In this document: positions 103 to 45,596 of the stretch, in pieces | Layout: the number at the start of each line of letters is the position of its first letter | Numbering within the stretch: position 1 is the stretch's first letter | DNA from: Methanofastidiosum sp. | GTDB lineage: Archaea; Methanobacteriota_B; Thermococci; Methanofastidiosales; Methanofastidiosaceae | Reading direction: 5' to 3' | DNA: 64,000 nucleotides | NCBI GenBank assembly: GCA_039679445.1 | Contig: JBDKUY010000017.1 | Span: forward strand, 4,065 to 68,064 | Program-made: the position numbers and the translations under genes | Notes under the pieces: model-generated | Seen by the model: the letters and a program-made list of their open reading frames with translations, nothing else | What the model was told of the DNA's origin: nothing | The model's database searches: none

Positions 103-354
103 ATGAAAGCTATAATAAAGCTAGATAAAGAAAATATAGAGCGCGTATATGAAATATATTCATGGAAAACTGATGTAAGTAGCCTTCAGTTTGTTGTTTC
201 AGAAAAAGATGCAAAGGATGGCGTTTCCGGTGTTATAACTATAATTATGGAAGGAAATGACATGGATCTTTTCAAAAGGCTCATGCATGGGGGCCGAATG
301 ATGGGAATAGATGGAGAGATAGACAGGATTATAGAAACAGAGAGAATGAAATAA
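103..354 (+). CDS. hypothetical small protein (83 aa)
   Basis: Six-frame ORF with no recognisable motif. Sits upstream of a tandem pair of CMD-family genes. Confidence 0.3.
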   Translation: MKAIIKLDKENIERVYEIYSWKTDVSSLQFVVSEKDAKDGVSGVITIIMEGNDMDLFKRLMHGGRMMGIDGEIDRIIETERMK

Positions 355-393: not shown

Positions 394-774
394 TTGACCT
401 TTAACGGTGCTCTTATGACATTAAACATTGAGAAAACTCTAAAGAAGATAGAGGATTTCTACGGAGAGGTTCCTTTTATTCTAAAAGAGATATCAAAAGA
501 CGAAAAGGATTTCATTACTTCAGTACAGAAACTTTTTCATCTTATGGGGCCAAACAAGGTTTTCTCACCAAAAGAGACTGAACTCTTTGCAATAGCCAGT
601 GCTGTTGGACATAATGGAAAACACTGCCTTGCATTTCATATTAAACAAGCCCTTAATTTTGGGGCAACTGAGGAAGAAATATTTCAGGTCATTTTAATAG
701 CTTCCTTAATGGGCGAATCATCAGCACTTGCAATTGGACTTAGAAAATTAAAGGAGATAGAAAATGAAAGATGA
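394..774 (+). CDS. carboxymuconolactone decarboxylase (CMD)/AhpD-like family protein
   Basis: About 120 aa, all-helical, with the Cys-x-x-x-x-His signature (GKHCLAFH) typical of the AhpD/CMD core. Confidence 0.55.
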   Translation: MTFNGALMTLNIEKTLKKIEDFYGEVPFILKEISKDEKDFITSVQKLFHLMGPNKVFSPKETELFAIASAVGHNGKHCLAFHIKQALNFGATEEEIFQVILIASLMGESSALAIGLRKLKEIENER

Positions 775-1117
775 ACTACTAAGGAAGATTAAGGAAAAAT
801 ATGGAGAAATCCCCTTCGTTACACAAGAAATCTCAAGGGATGAGGAATACTTTGTTCCAAGAACAAAAAGAGTCATTCATCTTATGGGTGGAAGCACATT
901 AGATACAAAGACTGCAGAACTAGTTGCTGTGGCTGCTGCTACTGCCTTAAAGACTCCGTTTTGTCTTGATGTGCATATAAGAAATGCAATAAGCGCCGGT
1001 GCGACAGTGGATGAATTATTCAATGTTATCGAAATAAGTGCCCTTATCTCTGAATCCTCTGCTCTTGGTATGTCATTAAGAGAATACAGGAAAGTCATTG
1101 ATAAAATGGAAGGCTAA
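764..1117 (+). CDS. CMD/AhpD-like family protein (paralog of the preceding gene)
   Basis: Same length and motif layout as the 394..774 protein (PFCLDVH; EISRDEEYF versus EISKDEKDF). Its ATG overlaps the upstream stop by 11 nt. Confidence 0.55.
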   Translation: MKDELLRKIKEKYGEIPFVTQEISRDEEYFVPRTKRVIHLMGGSTLDTKTAELVAVAAATALKTPFCLDVHIRNAISAGATVDELFNVIEISALISESSALGMSLREYRKVIDKMEG

Positions 1118-2439
1118 ATCCCTCTTTCTTTCTTAAATGTTTTTAAAATATCTGTTAAATCCGGCTTTCCGACTTCTTCTACTGAATACTTCACCCTTAC
1201 CAGTGGTTTATTGAGTTTCATGAGCTTACCTATGTCTATAGGAGTTCCAACGATTACGGTATCGCAAGGAACATTGTTTATTGTTGTTTCAAGCTCTTCT
1301 ACCTGCTCTCTGCTGTATCCCATTGCAGGTAATACTTTTCCAAGTTGTTTAAAATTTTCAAATATTTCTTTTATTGTACTTACTGCCCAAGGTCGTGGGT
1401 CTATTATCTCTTGGGCATTAAATTTTTTTGCCGCCACTGTTCCAGCGCCAAAACTCATGTTTCCATGTGTGAGTGTAGGTCCATCTTCAACAACAAGAAC
1501 TTTTTTACCTTCTATTAATTTTGGATCTTCAACAAAAACTGGAGAATTTGCTTCGATTATAGTTGCAGTGGGATTAATTTTTTGGATATTTCTCTTTATG
1601 GTATCTACTTGATCACGTGTTGCAGAATCAACTTTGTTAATAATAATTACATCGGCCATCATTGCATTTGCCTCACCAGGGTGATATGTTAGTTCTTGAC
1701 CCGCCCTCAATGGGTCAGCCAAAACAATATGCAAATCAGGTTTGAAGAATGGGAGGTCGTTATTTCCCCCGTCCCAAAGAATAACATCTGCCTCTTTTTC
1801 AGCTTCTCTCAATATTCTTTCATAATCAACACCGGCAAATACAACTGTACCATTTTCGATATGGGGCTCATACTCTTCTCGCTCTTCAATTGTACAATCT
1901 GCCTTGTCCAAATCTGCATAAGTTTCAAATCTTTGAACTGCACTCTTTAAGAGGTTACCATAAGGCATTGGATGTCTTGCAACAACAACTTTAAATCCCA
2001 TACTTTTCAAGATGTCTCTGACCTTTCTTGTTGTTGGGCTCTTGCCACTTCCAGTCCTTACTGCACATATGCTTATGACTGGTTTTTTTGATATTAGCAT
2101 TACGGACTTTGGGCCAAGAATAGAAAAATCTGCACAGCTTGAAAGAACAACAGATGCCTTGTCCATCACATAATTGTGGGAGATATCGCTGTAAGAGAGA
2201 AATACTTTATCCACGTTATATCTTTTAATCAAATCCCTCAATCGGCTCTCGGAATATATTGGTATGCCTTTTGGATATAAGGAACCTGCCAGCTCTTTTG
2301 GGTAGACACGATCCTCTATATCGGGTATTTGCGTTGCAGTAAAGCAAACAACTTCATATTTTGGATTATCTCTAAAATAAGTATTAAAATCATGAAAATC
2401 TCTACCAGCCGCCCCCATAATAATAACTTTTTTCTTCAT
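1114..2439 (-). CDS. COG2403-type P-loop protein, cyclic 2,3-diphosphoglycerate synthetase-like
   Basis: 441 aa. N-terminal Rossmann-like MKKKVIIMGAAGRDFHDFN, followed by a Walker A-like RTGSGKSPTT. The size and layout match the archaeal cDPG synthetase / predicted GTPase family. Family assignment is from memory, not a search. Confidence 0.45.
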   Translation of the reverse strand: MKKKVIIMGAAGRDFHDFNTYFRDNPKYEVVCFTATQIPDIEDRVYPKELAGSLYPKGIPIYSESRLRDLIKRYNVDKVFLSYSDISHNYVMDKASVVLSSCADFSILGPKSVMLISKKPVISICAVRTGSGKSPTTRKVRDILKSMGFKVVVARHPMPYGNLLKSAVQRFETYADLDKADCTIEEREEYEPHIENGTVVFAGVDYERILREAEKEADVILWDGGNNDLPFFKPDLHIVLADPLRAGQELTYHPGEANAMMADVIIINKVDSATRDQVDTIKRNIQKINPTATIIEANSPVFVEDPKLIEGKKVLVVEDGPTLTHGNMSFGAGTVAAKKFNAQEIIDPRPWAVSTIKEIFENFKQLGKVLPAMGYSREQVEELETTINNVPCDTVIVGTPIDIGKLMKLNKPLVRVKYSVEEVGKPDLTDILKTFKKERGI

Positions 2440-2491: not shown

Positions 2492-3955
2492 TTGTTAATG
2501 GCATTGCCGGAAATAAAAAATATTAAATATTTTCTTATTCCTATAGTTCTTATAGTTATACTTGCAGTATGTGAAACTTATCCACTTTACGGCAGATTTC
2601 CTTATCCCCTCTCATGGGATATATGGTACCACATGAGAATAGTAGAAAACTTTTCTAATGGATATTTTACTTTTGATCCAGTATCTTTTGGCCCAGAAGG
2701 GAGAATTCATACATATCCGCCTCTTTTTCATATTACCTTATTGGTATTATATAGAATATTAAATTTTGGAGGACTGTCCATTATGGACGCTGCAAGGATA
2801 ATGCCAGCTATATTGTTCCCATTATCGGCGATTTCAACATTTCTACTAATAAACAAATTTTATGGAAAAGAAGTAGGGCTCCTATCATCATTTTTTGTGC
2901 TTGTCATACCAGTATCTCTTGACCGAGGGATAATCGCCTCCCCACAATCACTTGCCTTGGTATTAATCCCTTTGGGTTTTCTTACATACCTCTTAGGATT
3001 AAAAGAGAGGAAATATCTATACGCTTCAGGAATTCTATCGTCTGCCGTTTTTTATACACATGGACTCTCATTCATAGTATTTTTTCTTTCAATTATTTTA
3101 TTCACATTTCTCTTGTATTTAGTCAAGAAAGAAATGAAACTCCAAAATTTTTTCATATTCACTTTAATAACAATTATTTTATCGTTCCCTTGGATTATCC
3201 AGCTTTTAATGCATGGTGTTGCATCAAATATTCCATATGGGGGCGTATTCAAGCTGGCTTTTTATCCTGTAAAACTTGGGTACATAACAATGGCCTTAGC
3301 TTTACCGGGAATAGTATTTCTGATACTCCGGAAGAGAGAAGAAGATTTGATGTTAATTTCATGGGGTACTGTGGCTTTTTTACTTTCAAGAAATTACATA
3401 ACAGGCCTAGATCTCCTCCCGTTCAGATTCATAGAATTTTTGGCATATCCTATCGCTTTTTATTCCTCTTTTGCCATATTTGAATTTGCTAAAGAAAAAA
3501 GAAAGGAAGCTATTCTTGCAGCAATTATTGGCATTATGGTAATCGCTTCTTTTCCTGCTGCAGAATATGTTTCAAAGGTCAAACCGATGTTAGGCGCTGA
3601 GGAATATTCGGCCTTTTCTTATCTAAATGAAAATTCAATTCAAGATAATTTCACAGTTGCTTCTTCTTGGTTTACTTCGCCGATTCTTGGAAAAATTTCA
3701 GAGTTGAAAACAGTTGAGGGTGGATATGCTTCCGGGAGCTGGGATTATGTCAAAAGAAGCCAAGATATAAAAACCCTTTATTCTGGCAATTATTCCGTTA
3801 TTGATACATATAATATAACTTATGCCTATCTTGGGCCAAGAGAGGTTGCAGAGTTTAAAAATAGTGAAAACTATTTAAATGCTTCCTCAATTGATAAGTT
3901 ATACAGTACAGGTAAAACCTCTCTGTACATATTCTGGGGTGGTAATTATAAATAA
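2492..3955 (+). CDS. polytopic membrane glycosyltransferase, GT-C fold (PMT/ArnT/GT39-like)
   Basis: About 11-13 predicted TM helices. The first loop carries HTYPPLFH, which resembles the PMT/ArnT motif. A C-terminal soluble domain of about 140 aa contains SGSWDY, a partial match to the STT3/AglB WWDYG motif. Confidence 0.45.
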   Translation: MLMALPEIKNIKYFLIPIVLIVILAVCETYPLYGRFPYPLSWDIWYHMRIVENFSNGYFTFDPVSFGPEGRIHTYPPLFHITLLVLYRILNFGGLSIMDAARIMPAILFPLSAISTFLLINKFYGKEVGLLSSFFVLVIPVSLDRGIIASPQSLALVLIPLGFLTYLLGLKERKYLYASGILSSAVFYTHGLSFIVFFLSIILFTFLLYLVKKEMKLQNFFIFTLITIILSFPWIIQLLMHGVASNIPYGGVFKLAFYPVKLGYITMALALPGIVFLILRKREEDLMLISWGTVAFLLSRNYITGLDLLPFRFIEFLAYPIAFYSSFAIFEFAKEKRKEAILAAIIGIMVIASFPAAEYVSKVKPMLGAEEYSAFSYLNENSIQDNFTVASSWFTSPILGKISELKTVEGGYASGSWDYVKRSQDIKTLYSGNYSVIDTYNITYAYLGPREVAEFKNSENYLNASSIDKLYSTGKTSLYIFWGGNYK

Positions 3956-3956
3956 A

Positions 3957-5234
3957 ATTTTAACATACTCTACTCTGACTATACTAATAATCTCTGTATT
4001 TTCTGTAGGTTGTACTACTCAAAAAACTGATTTAGATGAGTTCGAAGCAAAACTTACAATAGACGAGTTCGAGAAAGCAAAGAGTATTGTTGGAGAGGCC
4101 TATATAAACCTGAAGATTAGCGAGGGAAAAATTAAGAGAGTTGGAGATATCTATTATGTTGATCTTGCATTTAAAGGTTCGAGGAGATATTTTGATTTCA
4201 ATATGCTAGTTATTGATCCCTTGACAGAAAGGGATCTTGTGTCTGACCTAAAAACACCTGAAAATCTGGATTTTTGCAGAAATTATCTAAAATATAGAGG
4301 ATTCCCTGAAGATCAAAATATAGTAATATTAAACAATCTCATCTCCAAAGACAGTTTCTCAAAAACAACTTTAAATGAAATAATATTAAGCGTAATAACT
4401 ACACAAGCTCAATCAAAAGAAAGACAAGAATTATATAATAGTTACTTGAAAAAACTACCGCCCACAGTTTCAGACTTCATGGAAATCAAATTTCCACAGC
4501 CCTCTACTGATGCCATCAATCTAGCCGATTTATTTTTAAAAATATTCGAGAAAAATAAGTTTTTAGTTGACAATGTTGCAGAATCTGATTTTGAATATAA
4601 CATGACTAGCGCTAGTATAACGCTCATTATGCAGAATCCATTTGAAAAATCCTACTATATTGACGAGGGAAAGGATGGTGTGCTTGACAAGTGGAGCCGA
4701 TATATCTCAGGTAGTTTGAGTGAAGAATACTGGAATCTTGATAAACAGAATGGGTTTGAAGTAAAAAAAATATACAAGTACGATGCAGAGGTATGGAGAA
4801 ATTTCTCTAATTTTGAGAAGGAGTACAGAAATACTGGAGAGTACCCGATTACTACAGACTTTTACAAAGAGTGTGTTCTCTACGATTATAAAGAAGAGGG
4901 TGAATATGGTATAATTATAGGAGTTATTACTGGGCCCTATGTTTACAAGCACTACGGTGCAGATAAATATTATCCGTTTGAGGCGGTAATAGACTTCTAC
5001 GCAGGCAATACAAATATCTCAGACATAAACTTCCTTTATGACCAATTTGGGATTAGAAACAAGGGATGGATATACGTTGATAGTGACCTACCTGTAACTG
5101 AAGCAACTGATGCTAAAATTGAAGAAAAGGGAAAGATACTAGATGAAGTTGTAAGATTACTGATGGATCAACAAATTCTGATTCCTACAGTTCCAGAAGA
5201 TAGACCTAACTCCCCCGCCATCGAGGTAAATTAA
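3957..5234 (+). CDS. secreted/lipoprotein-like hypothetical protein
   Basis: The open frame runs from 3879 and overlaps the upstream gene, so the true start is likely just after 3955. It has an N-terminal hydrophobic segment ending in SVGC (lipobox-like). The mature part is hydrophilic and Tyr/Asp-rich with no known motif. Confidence 0.4.
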   Translation: MLTYSTLTILIISVFSVGCTTQKTDLDEFEAKLTIDEFEKAKSIVGEAYINLKISEGKIKRVGDIYYVDLAFKGSRRYFDFNMLVIDPLTERDLVSDLKTPENLDFCRNYLKYRGFPEDQNIVILNNLISKDSFSKTTLNEIILSVITTQAQSKERQELYNSYLKKLPPTVSDFMEIKFPQPSTDAINLADLFLKIFEKNKFLVDNVAESDFEYNMTSASITLIMQNPFEKSYYIDEGKDGVLDKWSRYISGSLSEEYWNLDKQNGFEVKKIYKYDAEVWRNFSNFEKEYRNTGEYPITTDFYKECVLYDYKEEGEYGIIIGVITGPYVYKHYGADKYYPFEAVIDFYAGNTNISDINFLYDQFGIRNKGWIYVDSDLPVTEATDAKIEEKGKILDEVVRLLMDQQILIPTVPEDRPNSPAIEVN

Positions 5235-6160
5235 GATAGATAATCATCCAATTCGGGATAATTAACTCCAGTTAGAACTATTACAACCTTTAATATATCC
5301 GGTGAATTATCAGTGAGTGAAACGCCCCATATTATCTCGGCATTTTTATGGACTCTTTCTTCTATATGCCCAGTAACATTTGTTGACTCTTTGAGTGCTA
5401 GGTCTTTGTTTCCGATGATATTAATAAGTACACCCTTGACCTCATCTAATTCTAAATCAAACTTTGATTTTAAGGCCCTCTCATAAGAGTTTATAGTCTT
5501 TTTTTCTCCTTTTCCTTCGCCCACGCCAATATAGCAGGCCCCACCCTTGTTTATCACAGTCCTGAAATCAGCAAAATCGATGTTGACAAGACTTGGTAGT
5601 GCAAGGGAAAGATATAATCCTTCGATTTTTTCCCAAAAAGGGGAATAACCTCGAGAAAATATTGTTTTTTGTTCATCCTCTCGTATAATAAAAGAATTTG
5701 AATACATCTTCAATTCCGAAAACTTCTCTTTTGAATTCTCTTTGCTAGTGCTCAGTATGTCGTCTGCCCTTATCACAGGTATGGGGATGGCTTTACTATC
5801 CTTTGCCAACTTTAAAAGAATTGATGCCAATTTAATATTTGTATCGGCTAGATCAGTTAAAATAAATACAATATTTGCTATACTGAAAAATCCACGGAAC
5901 TCTTCCTCTATTTTTGATGTTACTTTGAATATGCCTTGAATGCTTTCAGAAGAATCTATTTTATTTTTTAACAAGTCATTGACAAAGAATTTTTTCTCTG
6001 TTTTTAAGAATTTTAATCGTTCCTTGTCATACCCTATTGCCAATGTTTTTATATCTAGATTTTGGGGTTTAGTTTCTATTATCTTAAAGCTTTCATCTCC
6101 GAGTCCTATGACCATCATCTTAAGTTTCTGCGAATCGTTGTCCTTCTTAGACTGTTCCAT
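5231..6160 (-). CDS. FtsZ/tubulin-fold protein with degenerate GTP-binding motifs
   Basis: The whole length is collinear with FtsZ. NIDFADFRTVINKGGACYIGVGEGKGEKK matches FtsZ [29 protein letters not shown], and VLINIIGNKDL matches VLVNITAG.DL. The glycine box GGGGxN is replaced by GLGDES, and the tubulin signature GGGTGTG is replaced by DLADTNI. Confidence 0.7.
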   Translation of the reverse strand: MEQSKKDNDSQKLKMMVIGLGDESFKIIETKPQNLDIKTLAIGYDKERLKFLKTEKKFFVNDLLKNKIDSSESIQGIFKVTSKIEEEFRGFFSIANIVFILTDLADTNIKLASILLKLAKDSKAIPIPVIRADDILSTSKENSKEKFSELKMYSNSFIIREDEQKTIFSRGYSPFWEKIEGLYLSLALPSLVNIDFADFRTVINKGGACYIGVGEGKGEKKTINSYERALKSKFDLELDEVKGVLINIIGNKDLALKESTNVTGHIEERVHKNAEIIWGVSLTDNSPDILKVVIVLTGVNYPELDDYLS

Positions 6161-6211
6161 TAAAGTTGTTTTAAGAAATTTTTTTATAAGGGTTGTTGTT
6201 TGTAAGTATAT

Positions 6212-7334: not shown

Positions 7335-9347
7335 ATGGGTAAATATAAGAAATTTCTATTGCTCCCGATTTTAATAATTATGGTATTGGGAACAATACCC
7401 TTGATATATTCAGATAGCACTGAAGAATATTACATGCTTACGTTAATAAATAATGAACGCCATGCACAGGGGCTTGAGCCTCTCACAATGAATTCAACTC
7501 TTTCCTCTGCCGCAAAACTTCACAGCCAGGATATGATTAACCGGAATTTCTTTAATCACATAAATCCTGATGGGCTAACGCCTTCAGACAGAGCTAGAAA
7601 TGCGGGGTATAGCTTCATTGCATTGGCAGAAAATATATGTGGAAACCCATCTATCGATTCTGGGCATTCTTCACTTATGGGAAGCCCTTCTCATAGAGTC
7701 AATATTTTGAACCCTTCTTACAAAGAAGTAGGGATAGGAATAGTTGACGGTGGGCCTTATGGAAAAATGATAACTCAACTCTTTGGCACGCAATCAGAGA
7801 ATACTGTGACAACTCCAACTACAACACCGCAGGAACCTCAAGGAAAACCGGATCTAAAAATAGAAAAAATAGATTTTTCGGGACAAGCTGAACCATTAAA
7901 ACAGATATCAATAAAAATAACATTAATCAACTCGGGGAAGAAAAATTCCGGGAATTTTGTATTTGCTGTTTTTGAGGGACCTCTTGAAAAAGGAAATCAA
8001 TTGGGCAAAATAAATATTCCCTCTCTTTATGTTGGACAAACAATAACAGCTAATTTTAATTGGGCCCCACCTACTGAAGGGAGCTATACAATTTATTTTG
8101 TTACGGATTATAATAAAGATATCGATGAAGAAAATGAAAATAACAATATGGCAACTTACCCTTTATCTGTTAAATTAACAAATTCGCAGACTACTTCTGA
8201 AGAAAATCCAAGCAATCAAAATAATAAATCTGATCTATATATATCCAAAAGTGATATCTCCTATAATCAAATAGTCTATGAAGGCGAATCTTCATTAATA
8301 TCTTTTAGAATAAGAAATATTGGAAAATCAACAGCTTTTGTAATACCCATTAAAATATACGCTAATGGCGAGCTTAAAGCATCTTCGACAATAAATCAGA
8401 TCTTACCATCTTCATATACGGATTTGGCACTATATTTGACATTCTCAAATACTGGTGAGAATGTCATAGATATCAAAATTGATCCTGATAACAGTATAGA
8501 CGAAATTTCAAAAAATAACAACTACGCAAATTTCAACATAAAAGTTGTACCAAGAGAAAATAATTCAATTGCAACGCCGGATAGTAATCAAAATAACAAA
8601 CAGATATATCAAAATATTGATTTACTAGTATATCCTTACTACATTACAATTGAAGAACAAGGAAATGGATTTTTCTCAATTAAAACGAAAATAAAAAATA
8701 AAGGAATTACTAGTGTAGATAACTTTTCTGTAACTATCTACCAGAGAGATACTAATACTTCAAATAACACATTTATAGAAAGATTTTATCTATCCTTGGG
8801 CCCGGACCAAATAGTTGAAAAGATTATTACATTTATACCAACTACAGAAAAAGGAGAGATTGTTGTAGTTATTGATGAAGAAAATATAATCAAAGAAATG
8901 GATAAGAACAATAATATTGCTACAAAGAAATTTTCTAATATTATTAATGAATCAGATATACCCGAAATGAGAAGTGATTTCATACTAAATACAACTCCTC
9001 AAGATGTAAATATATCTAATTTGCTCAAAGTCACGATGAAACTAAAAGATATTAATTCTTCAAATGCATATCTATATTACAAGTATGACGAGGACATTAA
9101 TAGTTCCTTCTTCGTTCTAAAGATGAATAATGAAGGAAATTATAGCTACTTGGCAGAAGTAGAACCATTAGGAAAAACTAATCTATTTTATTATTTTGAG
9201 GTAGACACAGGTAATAACATAATAAAATCACCTTATGAGTCACCGAATGAGCTATATTCGACTATTATTAATTATCAACAAAATATTCAAGAAAAAAGAA
9301 ATCCAAGTTTTTTAGATAATGTAAGAAAGATTTTTGGATTGATATAG
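7335..9347 (+). CDS. secreted CAP/SCP/PR-1 domain protein with CARDB-like repeats
   Basis: N-terminal signal/TM. The CAP domain is residues about 35-150 (HAQGLEPL..FFNH..GENI..HRVNILNPSYKEVGIGIV). It is followed by at least three repeats with the CARDB-type pattern (DLKIEKIDFSG..., NNN.A.....V). Confidence 0.65.
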   Translation: MGKYKKFLLLPILIIMVLGTIPLIYSDSTEEYYMLTLINNERHAQGLEPLTMNSTLSSAAKLHSQDMINRNFFNHINPDGLTPSDRARNAGYSFIALAENICGNPSIDSGHSSLMGSPSHRVNILNPSYKEVGIGIVDGGPYGKMITQLFGTQSENTVTTPTTTPQEPQGKPDLKIEKIDFSGQAEPLKQISIKITLINSGKKNSGNFVFAVFEGPLEKGNQLGKINIPSLYVGQTITANFNWAPPTEGSYTIYFVTDYNKDIDEENENNNMATYPLSVKLTNSQTTSEENPSNQNNKSDLYISKSDISYNQIVYEGESSLISFRIRNIGKSTAFVIPIKIYANGELKASSTINQILPSSYTDLALYLTFSNTGENVIDIKIDPDNSIDEISKNNNYANFNIKVVPRENNSIATPDSNQNNKQIYQNIDLLVYPYYITIEEQGNGFFSIKTKIKNKGITSVDNFSVTIYQRDTNTSNNTFIERFYLSLGPDQIVEKIITFIPTTEKGEIVVVIDEENIIKEMDKNNNIATKKFSNIINESDIPEMRSDFILNTTPQDVNISNLLKVTMKLKDINSSNAYLYYKYDEDINSSFFVLKMNNEGNYSYLAEVEPLGKTNLFYYFEVDTGNNIIKSPYESPNELYSTIINYQQNIQEKRNPSFLDNVRKIFGLI

Positions 9348-9433
9348 AATTAATCCGGCATAGTATAACAATAGAATATTTTTAAGTTACTATAAGAATA
9401 CTAAAAAGAATAAATAAAGAAAATTTGAGACTA

Positions 9434-9640
9434 TTATTTTGGTCTTGCAATACCGCAAGAGTCTAGCTTGCAAGCATCGAATGCTTTGTTTACAGCTCCG
9501 ACTCCATATTTCGTGGAAATCTCTGCCAAAGCTGAGTCTATAGTTTTGCGCGTTGCAGGATTGCTCTTAGCATCGCCCATTTCTTCTCTTATAATTTCCA
9601 AAAGATCTAAATAAGTTTTTTCTGTTCCCATTATCTTCAA
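9434..9640 (-). CDS. hypothetical small protein (68 aa)
   Basis: ORF only. Small helical protein with C-terminal Cys pair. Confidence 0.3.
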   Translation of the reverse strand: MKIMGTEKTYLDLLEIIREEMGDAKSNPATRKTIDSALAEISTKYGVGAVNKAFDACKLDSCGIARPK

Positions 9641-9964
9641 CTCCAGTAATTATGCCATATAATACATAATCACATGTCATAATATGTTGTTCAATATATA
9701 AACTTTTCGTTGATTGTATAAAAAATAATAATCAATATCGGCAATTAGAGGAATACTAAAAATAGTTATACTTCCCTAATATTTGATGAAAATTATTAAA
9801 GATAGTAGAAATTAATAACAAATTTAAATATTCACAAATTAAAATTTAAAAAAATTGTAAGAATCACAAAACTATAATTTTGAACAATATCCTAATATTT
9901 TACTTTAATAAACTATCATCTCAAACTTAGAAGAGAATACTGCCGCATTTAATTTATAAAAAAG

Positions 9965-10049
<85 letters not shown>

Positions 10050-29325: not shown

Positions 29326-30897
29326 TCAAAAGAAAATAAAAGAATAGCGATTTTGTGAATCTCTGATTACATGCCCCTTTTTGTGCATCCAATCCAGTAA
29401 ATCCTGCACGTCATATTCATCTTTGAATAAATCAGTTGACTTTACTTCACGGAATATTTCAATTACAGTTAGATTTGGAGTATTAATCAGGGTAGCTTGA
29501 ACAACGTTATACCTCTCATTTGATTCATAATCTTTAATTGAATCTATTTCTTTTTTAATCGAGGGTTCACCTAACAACTGTTCGAAATTATCAAGTGTAG
29601 TTCTCCTTGAATCTTTAAGGAATTTATTTGTTATTTCCGTTTTATCGTCCGCCCTTGCAAATGACTGTGCCAATCTTTTGATATTGTAACTTGTTCTATT
29701 CAGCATGGAACGAACAATCAATTCTCTTGTTTTGTCTTGTTTGAATTTGTCGGCTAAAAGGACATCATAGTCTTTAGATAATAATTCTATTATGTGCCGA
29801 TATTCTTTATCATAATTTTTTCCTTCAGTAGGATTATTATGGTGCGCATGGACAATCTGAATCCATAAATTCTCATCAATCATTTTAAGTAAAGGTCTGA
29901 GGTACATATCATCTTCTGTCAACAACTGGTCGATGTCTGACAAAGTAATTTCTGTCTGGGTAAAATTTCTGAAAGTTTCAAGGATCATCTGCCTTCTTGT
30001 TCCCTCGTTAATTTTTATTGAAGAGAAAAGGGAATACTCTCCCCTGAAATTAGTTCGTTCAACTAGCGATTGATGCAGTTTTCCATAATTATCAGAATAT
30101 ATCTTAGAGAGGATATTCTGCCCAACTTTAGGCCTTTCTGCAAGTTTGTACTGAATAGTATTTGAATCGAAATTTATGCCATTGATTGCTTTTTTTGGTG
30201 GGTCCATACCCCGATATTCAGGCGGGACCATTAGTTGGATGATCTTCAGTAACTCGAGGGCGAGTTTTGAATTCCATGAAAGTGATGATAGAGATATACC
30301 CCCTACTTTCCCATCGTAAGGTGCACTTAAAATGGGTGCCTGAAATGACCTTGATATATCCTTGTCTAAAGGTAAGTTTTCTGCAAATAGGTTTTCAATT
30401 ATCCTTCTTTCATATGAAACATCCAAATAAATAGAATCTGATGGGAGCTCTTCCCAATCCTCAATTAAAATAACAAATTCACTTTTATTCAGCTTCTCAT
30501 TATAGATATATGATTTCTTTGATTTTATAATACTGATAAGGCTATAATTTTCTGGAATATCCTTGCCAGAAGGTATCAATCCTATAGTAACTGCAATAGG
30601 GGTATTATAAAGAGCAGATAGCCCTATTGGCTTAGAGTTAGTTTGAGATTCAATGGCAACGTTCCATGAAGTATCCATGGACATTGGAACAACATAAAGA
30701 GATATTTCTTCTAAAGATTTTCCATTTTCAGACCTACTAAATTCCTTATACCACTCTTCTACCTTACTTATCCTTTTCTTTTCATACTCTAAGAATTCAA
30801 CATTAATATATTGTCTATCCCATGGGAACTCAGAATAGGTAGGATATTTCTTCCACAGATAATAATCATTAAGTCTTAAAGATTCATGATTTGCCAT
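29326..30897 (-). CDS. large hypothetical protein (about 520 aa), no recognisable domain
   Basis: The long ORF runs to 31032 but overlaps the divergent LplB-like ORF, so the start was placed at the internal Met (MANHESLRL). No P-loop or other diagnostic motif was seen. Confidence 0.35.
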   Translation of the reverse strand: MANHESLRLNDYYLWKKYPTYSEFPWDRQYINVEFLEYEKKRISKVEEWYKEFSRSENGKSLEEISLYVVPMSMDTSWNVAIESQTNSKPIGLSALYNTPIAVTIGLIPSGKDIPENYSLISIIKSKKSYIYNEKLNKSEFVILIEDWEELPSDSIYLDVSYERRIIENLFAENLPLDKDISRSFQAPILSAPYDGKVGGISLSSLSWNSKLALELLKIIQLMVPPEYRGMDPPKKAINGINFDSNTIQYKLAERPKVGQNILSKIYSDNYGKLHQSLVERTNFRGEYSLFSSIKINEGTRRQMILETFRNFTQTEITLSDIDQLLTEDDMYLRPLLKMIDENLWIQIVHAHHNNPTEGKNYDKEYRHIIELLSKDYDVLLADKFKQDKTRELIVRSMLNRTSYNIKRLAQSFARADDKTEITNKFLKDSRRTTLDNFEQLLGEPSIKKEIDSIKDYESNERYNVVQATLINTPNLTVIEIFREVKSTDLFKDEYDVQDLLDWMHKKGHVIRDSQNRYSFIFF

Positions 30898-31014
30898 TTT
30901 ATCCTTTAATTGAATATTGAGAGACTTATATATAAAAGTAACACAATTTCTTTTTATTGGTTGACTACAATATTTATTTAAGTTAATAATTCCATTTAGA
31001 ATTGGTAGAGAATA

Positions 31015-31287
31015 ATGAATATTTTTGAACATAAACGAGAAGGCGGAAAATTAATTGGCGTTTCTTTTAACTATAAAAACGACATTTTTTCAGATGTCAG
31101 AATATATGGGGACTTCTTTGTCTTCCCAGAAGAAGAAATAGATAATTTAGAAAAATCGATTAATCAAAAGAGCTTGCCTGAATTATTACAACTAGTTGAT
31201 GATTTTTTTTCTTCAGGTATTAAGGTATATGGGATAACTGCTCGAGACCTAAAGGAAGTATTTGAGAGGGCAATAAATGAAAAGTAA
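31015..31287 (+). CDS. stand-alone lipoate-protein ligase C-terminal domain protein (LplB-like)
   Basis: 90 aa. GKLIGVSFNYKNDIFSDVRIYGDFFVFPEEEIDNLEKSI matches the GDFF-containing core of the LplA/LplJ C-terminal accessory domain. Assignment is from memory of the family logo. Confidence 0.5.
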   Translation: MNIFEHKREGGKLIGVSFNYKNDIFSDVRIYGDFFVFPEEEIDNLEKSINQKSLPELLQLVDDFFSSGIKVYGITARDLKEVFERAINEK

Positions 31288-40024: not shown

Positions 40025-40756
40025 TTAAGTATCTTCTAAGAATCCAACTTCAATATAGTATTGTGTGCTGACACCAATCATATATGTTCCGCCTTCATCT
40101 AGAGTTAATTCGTTTCCTTCCATGACTTCGAAATTCTTCCAGGCAGAACCGAAGTACTCAACAGTTTCATCTTCACTTCTAACAAATTGATCTTCAAACT
40201 TTGTATAGAATACTGTTGGAGGGGCAGAGCATAATGAGCTTCTGCATGTTACAACTGCCCTAATAACTTGGTCGCTCCTTATGGAATAAACATTTGCAAT
40301 TATCCCAACTTCGGGCATTTTATATCTTGCTTCTGGAATTAGTTTATAGAAAAACTTTGGTGCACATCCACATTCAACAGAGCATTTTTCTTTGATATTC
40401 TCCGGAGCACATATTCCATTTACGCACTTGTAGATCCATAGGTCTTCGCCTCTGCATTGGTCATTACATTTAATCCTTTGGCATAGATCAACTACACAAC
40501 CACATTTTTCAGAGCATGGCTCAATTCTTACAAAATCTACACATTCGCCATCTACACATTTTTGGCTCCAAAGGTCTTCACCTTTGCAGATGTCAGGGCA
40601 TTGAACATTCTCACAAAGATCAGTTTTTACAACAGGAGGAGGTTGTTCACTAGGCTTACTGCATCCTGAAACTAAAATAATTACAGTTATTAGGATAATT
40701 ATTCCAACAAGCCCTGCTCTCCTCTTACCCATGAAAATCTGAACTCTATAATTCAA
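40025..40756 (-). CDS. secreted cysteine-rich lipoprotein with two tandem 8-Cys modules
   Basis: Signal plus lipobox LVSGC, a proline linker, and the repeats CENVQCPDICKGEDLWSQKCVDGECVDFVRIEPCSEKCGC and CQRIKCNDQCRGEDLWIYKCVNGICAPENIKEKCSVECGC with identical Cys spacing. A further C-terminal domain of about 110 aa follows. Confidence 0.5.
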   Translation of the reverse strand: MNYRVQIFMGKRRAGLVGIIILITVIILVSGCSKPSEQPPPVVKTDLCENVQCPDICKGEDLWSQKCVDGECVDFVRIEPCSEKCGCVVDLCQRIKCNDQCRGEDLWIYKCVNGICAPENIKEKCSVECGCAPKFFYKLIPEARYKMPEVGIIANVYSIRSDQVIRAVVTCRSSLCSAPPTVFYTKFEDQFVRSEDETVEYFGSAWKNFEVMEGNELTLDEGGTYMIGVSTQYYIEVGFLEDT

Positions 40757-44921: not shown

Positions 44922-45596
44922 TTATAAAATTTCTATTTCTACCTCGCCTTTTTCGTTAGATTCATTAATAACAATGAAATACCAATATCCTGGGTGGGGT
45001 ACATTATAGCTTGTTCTCACTAAAGGTCCAGTATTAGAAGATAATTCTATTCCAGTTATTCCTTCTGTGGAGAAAGGAAGAAACCAGTTAGCTTTCAAGA
45101 ATTTTTCATATGTTTCTTCGTCAATGAAGTAAATCGAAACATTTCCTGTTTTAATTTGATATTTAAACTCTAAACTTTGATCTTTAAAGGCTTCTAATTT
45201 AATGGAATCGTATTTCTTATAAGGATAAACAGTTAAAGTTTTTTTAATATTATAATAATTAGATATACTTGAAGGTAAAATTAACTGTTTTGACATTAGA
45301 GTTTTACTTAAAGTATAATCATTGGTGTCTAAACCCAAAATATTATTACATTCTTTAATTCTCTCATTTGAAGTATATGCTAAATAATTATTACCTGCTT
45401 TAATGGCTTCGTTGTGTGAATATATAAAAAAATCCTTTGCTTTTAGAAAATTTTCAGCCCTCATAAAAGTTGCACCTGTGCTGTAAAGGTCCTGAGCAAC
45501 TTGATTCTTCTGTTGATTATTAAAGGAAGAAACGGCAATGAGATTAGAGAATAGTAAAATAAAAGTTAATAAACACAAACAATATATCTTTTTCAT
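44922..45596 (-). CDS. secreted hypothetical protein
   Basis: Signal peptide MKKIYCLCLLTFILLFSNLIAVSS. The mature part is Tyr/Asn-rich with no known motif. Confidence 0.4.
   Translation of the reverse strand: MKKIYCLCLLTFILLFSNLIAVSSFNNQQKNQVAQDLYSTGATFMRAENFLKAKDFFIYSHNEAIKAGNNYLAYTSNERIKECNNILGLDTNDYTLSKTLMSKQLILPSSISNYYNIKKTLTVYPYKKYDSIKLEAFKDQSLEFKYQIKTGNVSIYFIDEETYEKFLKANWFLPFSTEGITGIELSSNTGPLVRTSYNVPHPGYWYFIVINESNEKGEVEIEIL

What the first reader, a model, noticed from the sequence alone, without database searches (positions are those of the whole stretch)
5231..6160. FtsZ-fold protein with both GTP-binding signatures degenerate
The 309-aa minus-strand protein is collinear with FtsZ from N to C. 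NIDFADFRTVINKGGACYIGVGEGKGEKK corresponds to the FtsZ T7/C-domain segment [29 protein letters not shown], and VLINIIGNKDL corresponds to VLVNITAG.DL. The nucleotide-binding glycine box GGGGxN reads GLGDES (MMVIGLGDESFKII), and the tubulin signature GGGTGTG reads DLADTNI (IVFILTDLADTNIKLAS). A tubulin-superfamily member that has lost the phosphate-binding loops would be a structural or regulatory pseudo-GTPase, possibly a partner of a canonical FtsZ encoded elsewhere. CetZ and FtsZ1/2 retain these motifs.
Basis: partly seen in the sequence, partly recalled or inferred. Interest (0 to 1): 0.7.

Follow-up and report, generated by a model that had tools for sequence, protein, structure and literature searches.

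The report
FtsZ paralogue without a GTP pocket
A methanogen lineage (Methanofastidiosales) keeps, under strong selection, a copy of the cell-division protein FtsZ that has lost every loop that binds GTP but retains the loop that triggers GTP hydrolysis in a neighbouring subunit. It is therefore probably a regulator or end-cap of normal FtsZ filaments, not a filament former.

Summary

It is not a pseudogene. Orthologues (71-96% identical) sit in identical synteny in 10 Methanofastidiosales genomes, and dN/dS is 0.03-0.13 in both domains. An exhaustive profile search of 1.84 billion representatives found no member elsewhere.

The best-supported mechanism is inferred, not shown. The protein is a pseudo-GTPase that docks through its intact T7 face onto the nucleotide-exposing (shrinking) end of canonical FtsZ filaments and caps or modulates them.

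I could not retrieve the lineage's canonical FtsZ, so the partner is unverified. The origin (FtsZ1, FtsZ2 or bacterial) is unresolved. I rate it a new variant of a known kind, of moderate to high interest.

The parts
5231..6160 (-). Complete CDS of the degenerate FtsZ paralogue (309 aa plus stop).
   Evidence: ORF list. FtsZ_C and TIGR00065 hits. Collinear with MjFtsZ1. Orthologues in 10 Methanofastidiosales genomes. dN/dS 0.03-0.13.
6179..6189 (-). TTATAAAAAAA, a TATA-box-like element 29 nt upstream of the ATG. It lies in the 51-bp divergent intergenic region shared with the Ham1 gene, and its position implies a leaderless or short-leader archaeal transcript.
   Evidence: Read directly from the sequence. 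Promoter function is inferred, not tested.
5603..6121 (-). Residues 14-186: remnant of the nucleotide-binding (Rossmann-like) domain. The fold is kept but the ligand loops are lost.
   Evidence: No PF00091 hit. Alone it scores only about 20 bits against canonical FtsZ. 11 of 52 near-universal positions are kept. AF2 places strands S1-S6 and helices H1-H5 in FtsZ order.
6083..6106 (-). T1 remnant GLGDESFK (canonical GxGGxGxN).
   Evidence: Column audit: G47 becomes D/E, G49 becomes S/N/T, N51 becomes K/R in all orthologues.
5936..5980 (-). T3-equivalent segment NDLLKNKIDSSESIQ (canonical GxxxTxGLGAGGNP). It is predicted to be helical and is the most variable stretch within the family.
   Evidence: All conserved Gly and Pro residues are lost. 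AF2 predicts a helix at residues 62-70. Mean column entropy is 1.06 bits, the highest in the protein.
5831..5863 (-). S4 strand plus T4 remnant ILTDL-ADTNIK (canonical tubulin signature GxGGGTGTG) with a one-residue deletion.
   Evidence: Only T135 (Mj numbering) is kept. G130 and G134 become Asp.
5744..5773 (-). T5-equivalent segment IRADDILSTS (canonical TxPFxxEG).
   Evidence: P161, F162, E165, G166 and R169 are lost. The adjacent window 136-150 has entropy 1.02 bits.
5666..5695 (-). S6 strand plus T6 remnant SFIIREDEQK (canonical IPNxxL), followed by a 10-residue deletion of the H6/H6-H7 region.
   Evidence: N192 becomes D, and there is a 10-column gap relative to MjFtsZ. pLDDT is below 50 for residues 164-169.
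5600..5665 (-). Helix H7 (TIFSRGYSPFWEKIEGLYLSLA). It is nearly invariant within the family, but the guanine-contacting Asp (Mj D212) is replaced by Tyr.
   Evidence: entropy 0.15-0.17.
5552..5596 (-). Intact T7 loop and helix H8 (PSLVNIDFADFRTVI), carrying N193, D195 and D198. These are the residues that complete the GTPase site of the neighbouring subunit.
   Evidence: 100% conserved in canonical FtsZ and in all orthologues. This is the lowest-entropy segment of the protein, 0.09 bits.
5264..5542 (-). FtsZ C-terminal (GTPase-activating) domain, residues 207-299.
   Evidence: Pfam PF12327, 72 bits, covering the full length of the profile. 16 of 21 near-universal positions are kept. Alone it scores 80-90 bits against canonical FtsZ.
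5234..5263 (-). Short family-specific tail NYPELDDYLS (consensus YPELxxY[LI]x). It follows S10 directly, with no linker and no archaeal GID motif.
   Evidence: Alignment A1. AF2 predicts a helix at residues 302-308. The GID motif of archaeal FtsZ C-terminal domains is described in PMC8178401.

Best explanation
The gene encodes a lineage-specific FtsZ paralogue of Methanofastidiosales that is a pseudo-GTPase. It keeps the two-domain FtsZ fold, but all loops that hold the nucleotide (T1-T6 and the H7 base contact) have been replaced, largely by acidic or bulky residues. Helix H7, the T7 'synergy' loop (N193, D195, D198), H8 and the C-terminal domain remain canonical and almost invariant. It has also lost the linker and the SepF-binding C-terminal peptide. 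The steps that are shown are homology, fold, register, loss of the motifs, conservation and purifying selection. The inferred mechanism is as follows. The protein cannot polymerise head-to-tail by itself. It can, however, dock with its intact 'bottom' (T7) face onto the GTP-bearing 'top' face of a canonical FtsZ subunit. That top face is the nucleotide-exposing, shrinking end of a treadmilling filament. Because its own top face carries no nucleotide and is the least conserved surface of the protein, nothing can add onto it. It would therefore act as an end cap that modulates filament turnover or GTPase activity, or seeds filaments. It would not itself be tethered to the membrane.

For: Asymmetric decay: one search shows 11 of 52 conserved positions kept in the nucleotide-binding domain, and only 2 of 17 conserved glycines. 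In the C-terminal domain 16 of 21 are kept, including every T7 position. One search shows the N-terminal domain scoring about 20 bits and the C-terminal domain 80-90 bits against canonical FtsZ.

Functional gene: 10 species-level genomes carry it in identical synteny. dN/dS is 0.03-0.13 in both domains. A TATA box lies 29 nt upstream of the start.

Face-specific constraint within the family: the lowest entropy is at T7/H8 and H10 (0.09 bits). The highest is at the former T3 and T5 top-face loops (1.06 and 1.02 bits).

No SepF-binding GID tail or linker: compared with PMC8178401.

[quoted passage not shown] Capping of polymerisation interfaces is a known regulatory mode (PMC9897490).

Contrast: the Nitrosopumilus FtsZ-like protein, which has left FtsZ function, lost both the GTP motif and T7 (PMC3684127). 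Retention of T7 here therefore argues for continued action on a nucleotide bound in trans.
Against: No canonical FtsZ, SepF or other division gene of Methanofastidiosum could be retrieved. There is none in the 64-kb window. Two database searches listed only their best 120 hits, and none of those came from this lineage. The partner is therefore assumed from the general distribution of FtsZ1 and FtsZ2 in Euryarchaeota (10.1101/2020.06.04.133736). The gene is monocistronic among housekeeping genes, so genomic context gives no functional support. No complex could be modelled and no atomic coordinates inspected. Conservation of T7 could reflect a structural or cation-binding role. The N-terminal domain is itself under purifying selection (omega 0.06-0.13), so it does something that the capping model does not explain. 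With no membrane-tether motif, it is unclear how the protein would be localised.
Confidence: 0.45

Rival explanations
1. The protein is an assembly inhibitor that sequesters FtsZ monomers, analogous to the FtsZ-like domain of ARC3 or to SulA and MciZ. It would bind free FtsZ and keep it out of the ring, acting as a spatial or conditional division inhibitor and not as a filament-end cap.
For: The structural evidence is the same as for the main model: an intact T7 face and a dead top face. ARC3 is a precedent for an FtsZ-derived domain that directly inhibits Z-ring assembly and alters FtsZ GTPase activity and dynamics (PMC12232670). Sequestration and capping are both established modes of FtsZ regulation (PMC9897490).
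Against: Sequence alone cannot distinguish this from capping. There is no Min-like or positional partner nearby. ARC3 carries extra domains (a middle domain and MORN) that this protein lacks.
Confidence: 0.2
2. The protein is a scaffold with a new function unrelated to FtsZ filaments. The remodelled, acid-lined N-terminal domain would bind a different ligand, cation or protein, and the T7 and C-terminal domain would be conserved for fold stability only.
For: The N-terminal domain is under purifying selection despite losing all nucleotide loops (omega 0.06-0.13). It has family-specific invariant blocks: EKKF, ANIVF, REDEQ and SPFWEKIEGLY. Acidic residues D22, E23, D103, D106, D133, D134 and E161-D162-E163 now line the former pocket. 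There is no genomic link to division genes. 'Non-canonical' tubulin-superfamily proteins of unknown role are scattered across archaea (PMC9856176).
Against: It does not explain why the three solvent-exposed catalytic T7 residues are invariant, given that the Nitrosopumilus FtsZ-like protein, which left FtsZ function, lost them. The former top-face loops are the most variable part of the protein.
Confidence: 0.2
3. The protein is a nucleotide-independent homopolymer: a structural filament built head-to-tail without GTP.
For: The full two-domain fold is kept. The AF2 model is slightly closer to open, T-state filament structures (TM 0.76-0.77) than to relaxed monomers (TM 0.64-0.73).
Against: A head-to-tail polymer needs both faces conserved, but here the top-face loops are the most variable and the H6 region is deleted. 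No membrane-tether motif is present. The TM-score differences are small and come from a model.
Confidence: 0.08
4. The protein is an ordinary, GTP-binding FtsZ whose motifs are merely misaligned, or it is a decaying pseudogene.
For: NCBI and JGI pipelines label some orthologues 'cell division protein FtsZ'.
Against: No T1 or T4 pattern occurs in any register in any orthologue. PF00091 is absent, and the TIGR00065 score is 97.6 against a cut-off of 295.2. The ORF is intact in 10 genomes with dN/dS 0.03-0.13.
Confidence: 0.03

Closest known systems
Archaeal FtsZ1 (e.g. Methanocaldococcus jannaschii FtsZ1, PDB 1FSZ/1W58)
   Same: It is the best single-sequence match (E=2e-28, collinear over about 290 residues). 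It shares the same two-domain fold. The T7 loop N-x-D-F-A-D is identical, and the C-terminal domain is canonical.
   Different: All the nucleotide-contacting loops T1-T6 and the H7 base-contacting Asp (Mj D212) are lost. There is a one-residue deletion in T4 and a 10-residue deletion at H6. There is no linker and no GID/SepF-binding tail. The score is far below the TIGR00065 cut-off. Profile scores against archaeal FtsZ1 (98-119 bits) and bacterial FtsZ (100-123 bits) are equal, so descent from FtsZ1 specifically is not established.
Thaumarchaeal FtsZ-like protein (Nitrosopumilus maritimus Nmar_1262)
   Same: It is an archaeal FtsZ homologue whose tubulin signature is degenerate (AGKAGSA) and which does not polymerise (PMC3684127).
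   Different: Nmar_1262 also lacks the T7 loop, whereas the Methanofastidiosum protein keeps T7 perfectly. Its T4 is also more thoroughly destroyed (D-L-x-D-T-N-x-K). It occurs in a euryarchaeal lineage expected to divide with FtsZ.
ARC3 FtsZ-like domain (plant chloroplast division inhibitor)
   Same: It is an FtsZ-derived domain that acts on genuine FtsZ as a regulator of ring assembly and dynamics, not as a filament subunit (PMC12232670).
   Different: ARC3 is eukaryotic and multidomain (a middle domain plus MORN) and works within the chloroplast Min system. No sequence comparison with ARC3 was run here. The similarity is in the logic of the mechanism, not in established orthology.
FtsZl1 / FtsZl2 families (Makarova & Koonin 2010)
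   Same: They are divergent prokaryotic members of the FtsZ-tubulin superfamily that coexist with conventional FtsZ (PMC2875224).
   Different: The pattern is the mirror image. FtsZl1 keeps the nucleotide-binding loops but lacks a recognisable T6-H7 region and FtsZ C-terminal domain, and it sits in vWA operons. FtsZl2 keeps T1, T4, T6 and T7. The present protein has lost T1-T6, keeps H7-T7 and the C-terminal domain, and is monocistronic.
Engineered FtsZ 'top-face' interface mutants and filament cappers (MciZ, MipZ)
   Same: It follows the same logic of a molecule that occupies one polymerisation interface and blocks further addition (PMC8936486; PMC9897490).
   Different: Known natural cappers are not FtsZ homologues, and those described act at the bottom (plus) end. 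This would be an FtsZ-derived cap for the opposite, nucleotide-exposing end. This is an inference.

Membership tests
FtsZ family (Pfam PF00091 + PF12327; NCBIfam TIGR00065) | FtsZ C-terminal domain (PF12327) | tested here: met
   72 bits, E=5e-20, cut-off 27 bits; residues 207-299 cover profile positions 1-94 of 95.
FtsZ family (Pfam PF00091 + PF12327; NCBIfam TIGR00065) | Tubulin/FtsZ GTPase domain recognised by PF00091 | tested here: not met
   No hit even at E<=10. The N-terminal domain alone scores about 20 bits against canonical FtsZ, although the fold is retained in the AF2 model.
FtsZ family (Pfam PF00091 + PF12327; NCBIfam TIGR00065) | Score above the TIGR00065 equivalog cut-off | tested here: not met
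   97.6 bits against a cut-off of 295.2.
FtsZ family (Pfam PF00091 + PF12327; NCBIfam TIGR00065) | T1 glycine box GxGGxGxN and T4 tubulin signature GGGTG(T/S)G | tested here: not met
   They read GLGDESFK and DL-ADTNIK in the profile register. No match occurs in any register in any orthologue.
FtsZ family (Pfam PF00091 + PF12327; NCBIfam TIGR00065) | T7 synergy loop N-x-D-x-x-D | tested here: met
   NIDFAD, invariant in all orthologues.
FtsZ family (Pfam PF00091 + PF12327; NCBIfam TIGR00065) | GTP binding, GTPase activity and GTP-dependent polymerisation | not testable with these tools
   This requires biochemistry. The sequence predicts that none of these occurs.
Archaeal FtsZ1/FtsZ2 | Flexible linker plus a C-terminal peptide centred on a near-invariant GID motif that binds SepF (PMC8178401) | tested here: not met
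   The protein ends ...GVNYPELDDYLS, 10 residues after S10. No GID is present in any orthologue.
Archaeal FtsZ1/FtsZ2 | Phylogenetic placement inside the FtsZ1 or FtsZ2 clade | tested here: inconclusive
   The best single hit is MjFtsZ1, but profiles of archaeal FtsZ1 and of bacterial FtsZ score equally. No labelled FtsZ2 set was obtainable.
CetZ | Sequence membership of the CetZ clade or its C-terminal domain | tested here: not met
FtsZl1 (Makarova & Koonin 2010) | Conserved T1-T4 nucleotide loops, no recognisable T6-H7 region or FtsZ C-terminal domain, and a vWA-containing operon | tested here: not met
   The pattern is the opposite: T1-T6 lost, H7-T7 and FtsZ_C present. There is no vWA neighbour.
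Pseudo-GTPase (functional class) | GTPase fold with the nucleotide-binding residues lost, but the gene maintained by selection | tested here: met
   Fold. Loss of residues. dN/dS 0.03-0.13 and 10 syntenic orthologues. The actual lack of nucleotide binding is not testable here.

The most novel reading that the evidence does not exclude
Methanofastidiosales have evolved an FtsZ-derived pseudoenzyme that works like a gamma-tubulin-style end factor for FtsZ. It would be a dedicated, nucleotide-free subunit that occupies the nucleotide-exposing (minus) end of canonical FtsZ filaments through its intact T7 face. It would complete the terminal GTPase site while terminating the polymer, and so control nucleation, length or treadmilling of the archaeal division ring. 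This would be the first natural FtsZ-homologous capper and the first known regulator of the FtsZ minus end. A more extreme variant, which the evidence does not exclude, is that the protein is the lineage's remodelled FtsZ2.
Probability: 0.3. Interest if true: 0.8.

Novelty: new variant of a known kind. Interest (0 to 1): 0.58.

Why it matters
FtsZ regulation in archaea is almost unknown beyond SepF, and a few haloarchaeal factors such as CdpA and the transcriptional regulator CdrS. No endogenous factor that acts on the nucleotide-exposing end of FtsZ filaments is known in any domain of life. A naturally selected FtsZ with a dead top face and a live bottom face would be a ready-made tool for testing filament polarity and treadmilling models. 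It would also be a clear case of a cytoskeletal GTPase becoming a pseudoenzyme regulator of its own family, parallel to ARC3 in plastids. Annotation pipelines currently label it 'cell division protein FtsZ' or 'hypothetical protein'. As a result, counts of functional FtsZ copies in this lineage are inflated.

Tried and rejected
1. I looked for a second, intact ftsZ in the window with tblastn. Only the locus itself matched.

2. I tried to retrieve canonical FtsZ of Methanofastidiosum. A search with P0021 gave only Aenigmarchaeota FtsZ1. A search with the reconstructed MjFtsZ1 gave Methanococcales and DPANN sequences. Each search lists only its best 120 hits, so this says nothing about absence. 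Named cluster members of the top representatives were Asgard or bacterial. Supplements of Pende 2021 and of a Methanofastidiosa genomics paper do not mention the lineage's FtsZ. No held paper combines Methanofastidiosum with cell division.

3. I tried to assign the protein to FtsZ1 or to bacterial FtsZ by profile scores. The scores were equal, so this is unresolved. No labelled FtsZ2 or CetZ sequence sets were obtainable, so no proper phylogeny was made.

4. I looked for operon or context clues. The neighbours are Ham1/S15, a CAP-CARDB protein, a putative lipoprotein of unknown family, STT3/AglB, a CobW-like protein and CMD genes, none related to division.

5. I tested for a mobile-element or viral origin. 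There is no relative in IMG/VR, and the gene lies in core-genome synteny.

6. I considered kinship with a bacterial family of roughly 210-280 aa 'mini-FtsZ' proteins (P0022, P0026, P0027) that shares a TDLxDxNI-like T4 remnant. I rejected it as a sister group. Those proteins score much better with the bacterial FtsZ profile (117-159 bits) than with the archaeal one (69-97 bits), and the single-sequence score against P0022 is no higher than against canonical FtsZ.

7. The afdb50 structure library was unavailable.

8. Modelling a complex with FtsZ is not possible with the tools offered.
Full report
OBSERVATION. The window is archaeal, about 35% G+C, and carries the large ribosomal-protein gene clusters. 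At 5231..6160 on the minus strand there is a 309-aa ORF with an ATG start. A TTATAAAAAAA element lies 29 nt upstream of the ATG, in a 51-bp divergent intergenic region shared with a Ham1-family gene. This fits a leaderless archaeal transcript. Pfam finds only the FtsZ C-terminal domain (PF12327, 72 bits, E=5e-20, residues 207-299 covering the whole profile). It finds no Tubulin/FtsZ GTPase domain even at E<=10. NCBIfam TIGR00065 (ftsZ) aligns residues 3-302 to profile positions 8-327 of 353 but scores 97.6 bits against a cut-off of 295.2. phmmer against the PDB returns 49 distinct sequences, all FtsZ. The best is M. jannaschii FtsZ1 (E=2e-28), collinear from residue 11 to 300. Bacterial FtsZ hits score 5e-18 or weaker, and no CetZ, TubZ or tubulin chain appears.

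REGISTER AND EXTENT OF THE DEGENERACY. GLGDESFK lies on GCGGAGNN (T1), and DL-ADTNIK lies on GLGGGTGTG (T4, with a one-residue deletion). No T1-like or T4-like pattern exists in any register in this protein or its orthologues.

I audited every alignment column that is at least 85% conserved in 41 canonical FtsZ proteins, both bacterial and archaeal. In the nucleotide-binding domain 11 of 52 such positions are kept, and these are mainly core residues. Only 2 of 17 conserved glycines survive. The specific losses are:
- T2: NTD becomes GYD.
- T3: GLGAGGNP becomes K-I-D-S-S-x-x-I.
- T5: PFxxEG and the following Arg are lost.
- T6: Asn becomes Asp, followed by a 10-residue deletion of the H6 region.
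- H7: the guanine-contacting Asp becomes Tyr.
Acidic residues now line the former pocket: D22, E23, D103, D106, D133, D134 and E161-D162-E163.

In the C-terminal domain 16 of 21 conserved positions are kept, including every T7 position (N193, D195, F196, A197, D198). Taken separately, the N-terminal half scores about 20 bits against canonical FtsZ and the C-terminal half 80-90 bits.

A REAL, SELECTED, LINEAGE-SPECIFIC GENE. A word-indexed search of 5.8 billion proteins found 20 relatives at 71-99% identity. Every one that carries a name is from Candidatus Methanofastidiosum or Methanofastidiosa. All share the degenerate motifs and the tail consensus YPELxxY. An exhaustive profile search of 1.84 billion cluster representatives found the family as a single 50%-identity cluster (519.7 bits) plus two fragments. 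The next hits are canonical FtsZs (182 bits or less, inflated by tandem copies) and a short bacterial family. A scan of one genome per GTDB species found the gene in 10 Methanofastidiosales MAGs (71-96% identity) and nowhere else. IMG/VR contains no relative.

Synteny is identical in every locus, including the most divergent one. The order is S15 and Ham1 (divergent), then this gene, then a convergent 451-aa protein of unknown family, STT3/AglB, a CobW-like protein, and two CMD genes. The gene diverges at about the same rate as its housekeeping neighbours. Nei-Gojobori dN/dS against the seven orthologues whose synonymous sites are not saturated is 0.03-0.13 overall, 0.06-0.13 for the N-terminal domain and 0.02-0.20 for the C-terminal domain. 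The gene is not a pseudogene, and even the degenerate domain is constrained.

WHICH SURFACES ARE CONSTRAINED. Among 15 full-length orthologues, the least variable stretches are H7, T7/H8, S7 and H10 (mean column entropy 0.09-0.19 bits). The most variable internal stretches are exactly the former T3 (residues 61-75, 1.06 bits) and T5/H5 (residues 136-150, 1.02 bits) regions, which are the loops of the 'top' longitudinal interface. Invariant positions make up 41% of the N-terminal domain and 70% of the C-terminal domain.

MISSING TAIL. The C-terminal domains of archaeal FtsZ1 and FtsZ2 are centred on a nearly invariant GID motif that binds SepF, the membrane anchor (PMC8178401). The canonical archaeal sequences retrieved here show this motif, for example P0021 ending ...KILGIDSVDR. 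The Methanofastidiosum protein stops 10 residues after the last strand and has neither linker nor GID.

MECHANISM (INFERRED). In FtsZ filaments the T7 loop of one subunit inserts into the GTP site of the next. [quoted passage not shown] Capping of a polymerisation interface is an established way of regulating FtsZ (PMC9897490). A protein with a conserved bottom face and a nucleotide-free, variable top face should dock onto the nucleotide-exposing end of a canonical filament, or onto a GTP-bound monomer, and should terminate the polymer there. Because the catalytic T7 aspartates are invariant, it may still complete the hydrolytic site of the subunit beneath it.

I regard this capper/modulator model as the most likely mechanism (about 0.45). 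A pure monomer-sequestering inhibitor, as in ARC3 (PMC12232670), is a close variant (0.2). A scaffold with a new function in its N-terminal domain is the main true alternative (0.2). That alternative is supported by purifying selection on the N-terminal domain and by the lack of any genomic link to division genes. A nucleotide-independent homopolymer is unlikely because the top face is variable (0.08).

The informative contrast is the Nitrosopumilus FtsZ-like protein, which has lost both the GTP motif and T7 and does not polymerise (PMC3684127). Here only the nucleotide side is lost.

WHAT IS NOT ESTABLISHED. I could not show that Methanofastidiosum encodes a canonical FtsZ or SepF. The window has none. 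The database tools list only the 120 best hits for a canonical query, and none of those was from this lineage. The expectation that such genes exist rests on the published distribution of FtsZ1 and FtsZ2 in most Euryarchaeota, including Thermococci (10.1101/2020.06.04.133736).

The evolutionary origin is also unresolved. MjFtsZ1 is the best single match, but profiles of archaeal FtsZ1 and of bacterial FtsZ score equally, and no labelled FtsZ2 set could be assembled. No complex could be modelled.

COMPARISON WITH KNOWN FAMILIES. The protein belongs to the FtsZ family by descent (FtsZ_C domain, T7 loop, fold). It fails the family's defining functional features: PF00091, the TIGR00065 cut-off, T1 and T4, and the GID tail. 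It is not a CetZ. It is the mirror image of FtsZl1, which keeps the nucleotide loops but lacks T6-H7 and the FtsZ C-terminal domain (PMC2875224). 'Non-canonical' tubulin-superfamily proteins of patchy distribution have been noted in archaea (PMC9856176). No paper in the held library describes this family or discusses FtsZ proteins of the Methanofastidiosa.

VERDICT. The structural interpretation is supported, and the functional interpretation is plausible but untested. This is a new variant of a known kind: an FtsZ-family pseudo-GTPase that retains only the trans-acting half of the active site. Interest is 0.58.

Noticed in passing
Loci L005 (8001-8822), L006 (440-1261), L007 (5539-6360); proteins P0022, P0026, P0027, P0160, P0070: There is a separate family of very short FtsZ-like proteins (about 210-280 aa) on contigs with a bacterial gene context (ribosomal protein L9, TatA/TatC, an MCP chemoreceptor, HtpG). 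These proteins also lack T1 and T4 (GVGELG..., GDL-NRKDL / TDL-VDENI) and the T3 and T5 loops, but keep G-L-D-F-A/V-D and AEIIWGV. The gene is the last in a run of five co-directional genes of unknown function that ends with a Sel1-repeat protein, which it overlaps. The family scores better with a bacterial FtsZ profile than with an archaeal one (117-159 against 69-97 bits). It may be an independent FtsZ-derived pseudo-GTPase.
   Followed up: partly
Proteins P0147 (named SAR324 cluster bacterium), P0171, P0060, P0082, P0102, P0046, P0136: Several other full-length FtsZ homologues among the top 150 representatives have partly degenerate T1 and/or T4 loops. Examples are GVGDGALKH / NLG-GPDTAAAP and NIGDCSDN / NIGDGTDLEAA, the latter with a bacterial-type C-terminal peptide. 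Erosion of the GTP site in FtsZ paralogues therefore seems to be recurrent.
   Followed up: partly
window 3879-5234 (+): A 451-aa protein with no Pfam match. Near its N-terminus it has a hydrophobic segment ending in ...SVFSVGC, which resembles a lipobox. It is convergent with the FtsZ paralogue and overlaps its 3' end by 4 nt. It is conserved in this position in all Methanofastidiosales loci at 68-96% identity.
   Followed up: partly
window 7335-9347 (+); low-GC stretch 8001-10000: A 670-aa secreted-looking protein with a CAP domain and three CARDB repeats. It lies in the lowest-GC part of the window (28%). It diverges faster than its neighbours, at 52-84% identity where S15 is 86-99% identical.
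   Followed up: no
window 1114-2439 (-): A 441-aa protein that is very highly conserved across the order (88-98% identity). Its only Pfam hit is weak, to CobW/HypB/UreG (23 bits). It is a conserved protein of unknown identity next to STT3/AglB.
   Followed up: no
window 394-774 and 764-1117 (+): Two tandem, overlapping paralogous CMD-family (carboxymuconolactone-decarboxylase-like) genes, about 40-45% identical to each other and conserved as a pair in all loci examined.
   Followed up: no
L001 16734-20041 (also L002, L004): In another Methanofastidiosum species, a phage-type integrase (PF00589) and a KAP-family NTPase lie beyond the CMD genes and TrmO, about 6 kb from the FtsZ paralogue. This may be the edge of an integrated element. 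The corresponding region lies outside the window.
   Followed up: no
window 29326-31032 (-), 40025-40756 (-), 44922-45596 (-): ORFs of 568, 243 and 224 aa with no Pfam family at E<=1e-3 or 1e-4.
   Followed up: no
AF2 model of window 5231-6160 (-): Foldseek TM-scores are consistently higher against open, T-state (filament-conformation) FtsZ structures (S. aureus 3VOA and 5H5H, and the K. pneumoniae FtsZ-ZapA filament 9ISK; 0.76-0.77) than against relaxed monomer structures (M. tuberculosis, E. coli and M. jannaschii; 0.64-0.73). This is a weak hint that the protein is fixed in the polymer-type conformation.
   Followed up: no
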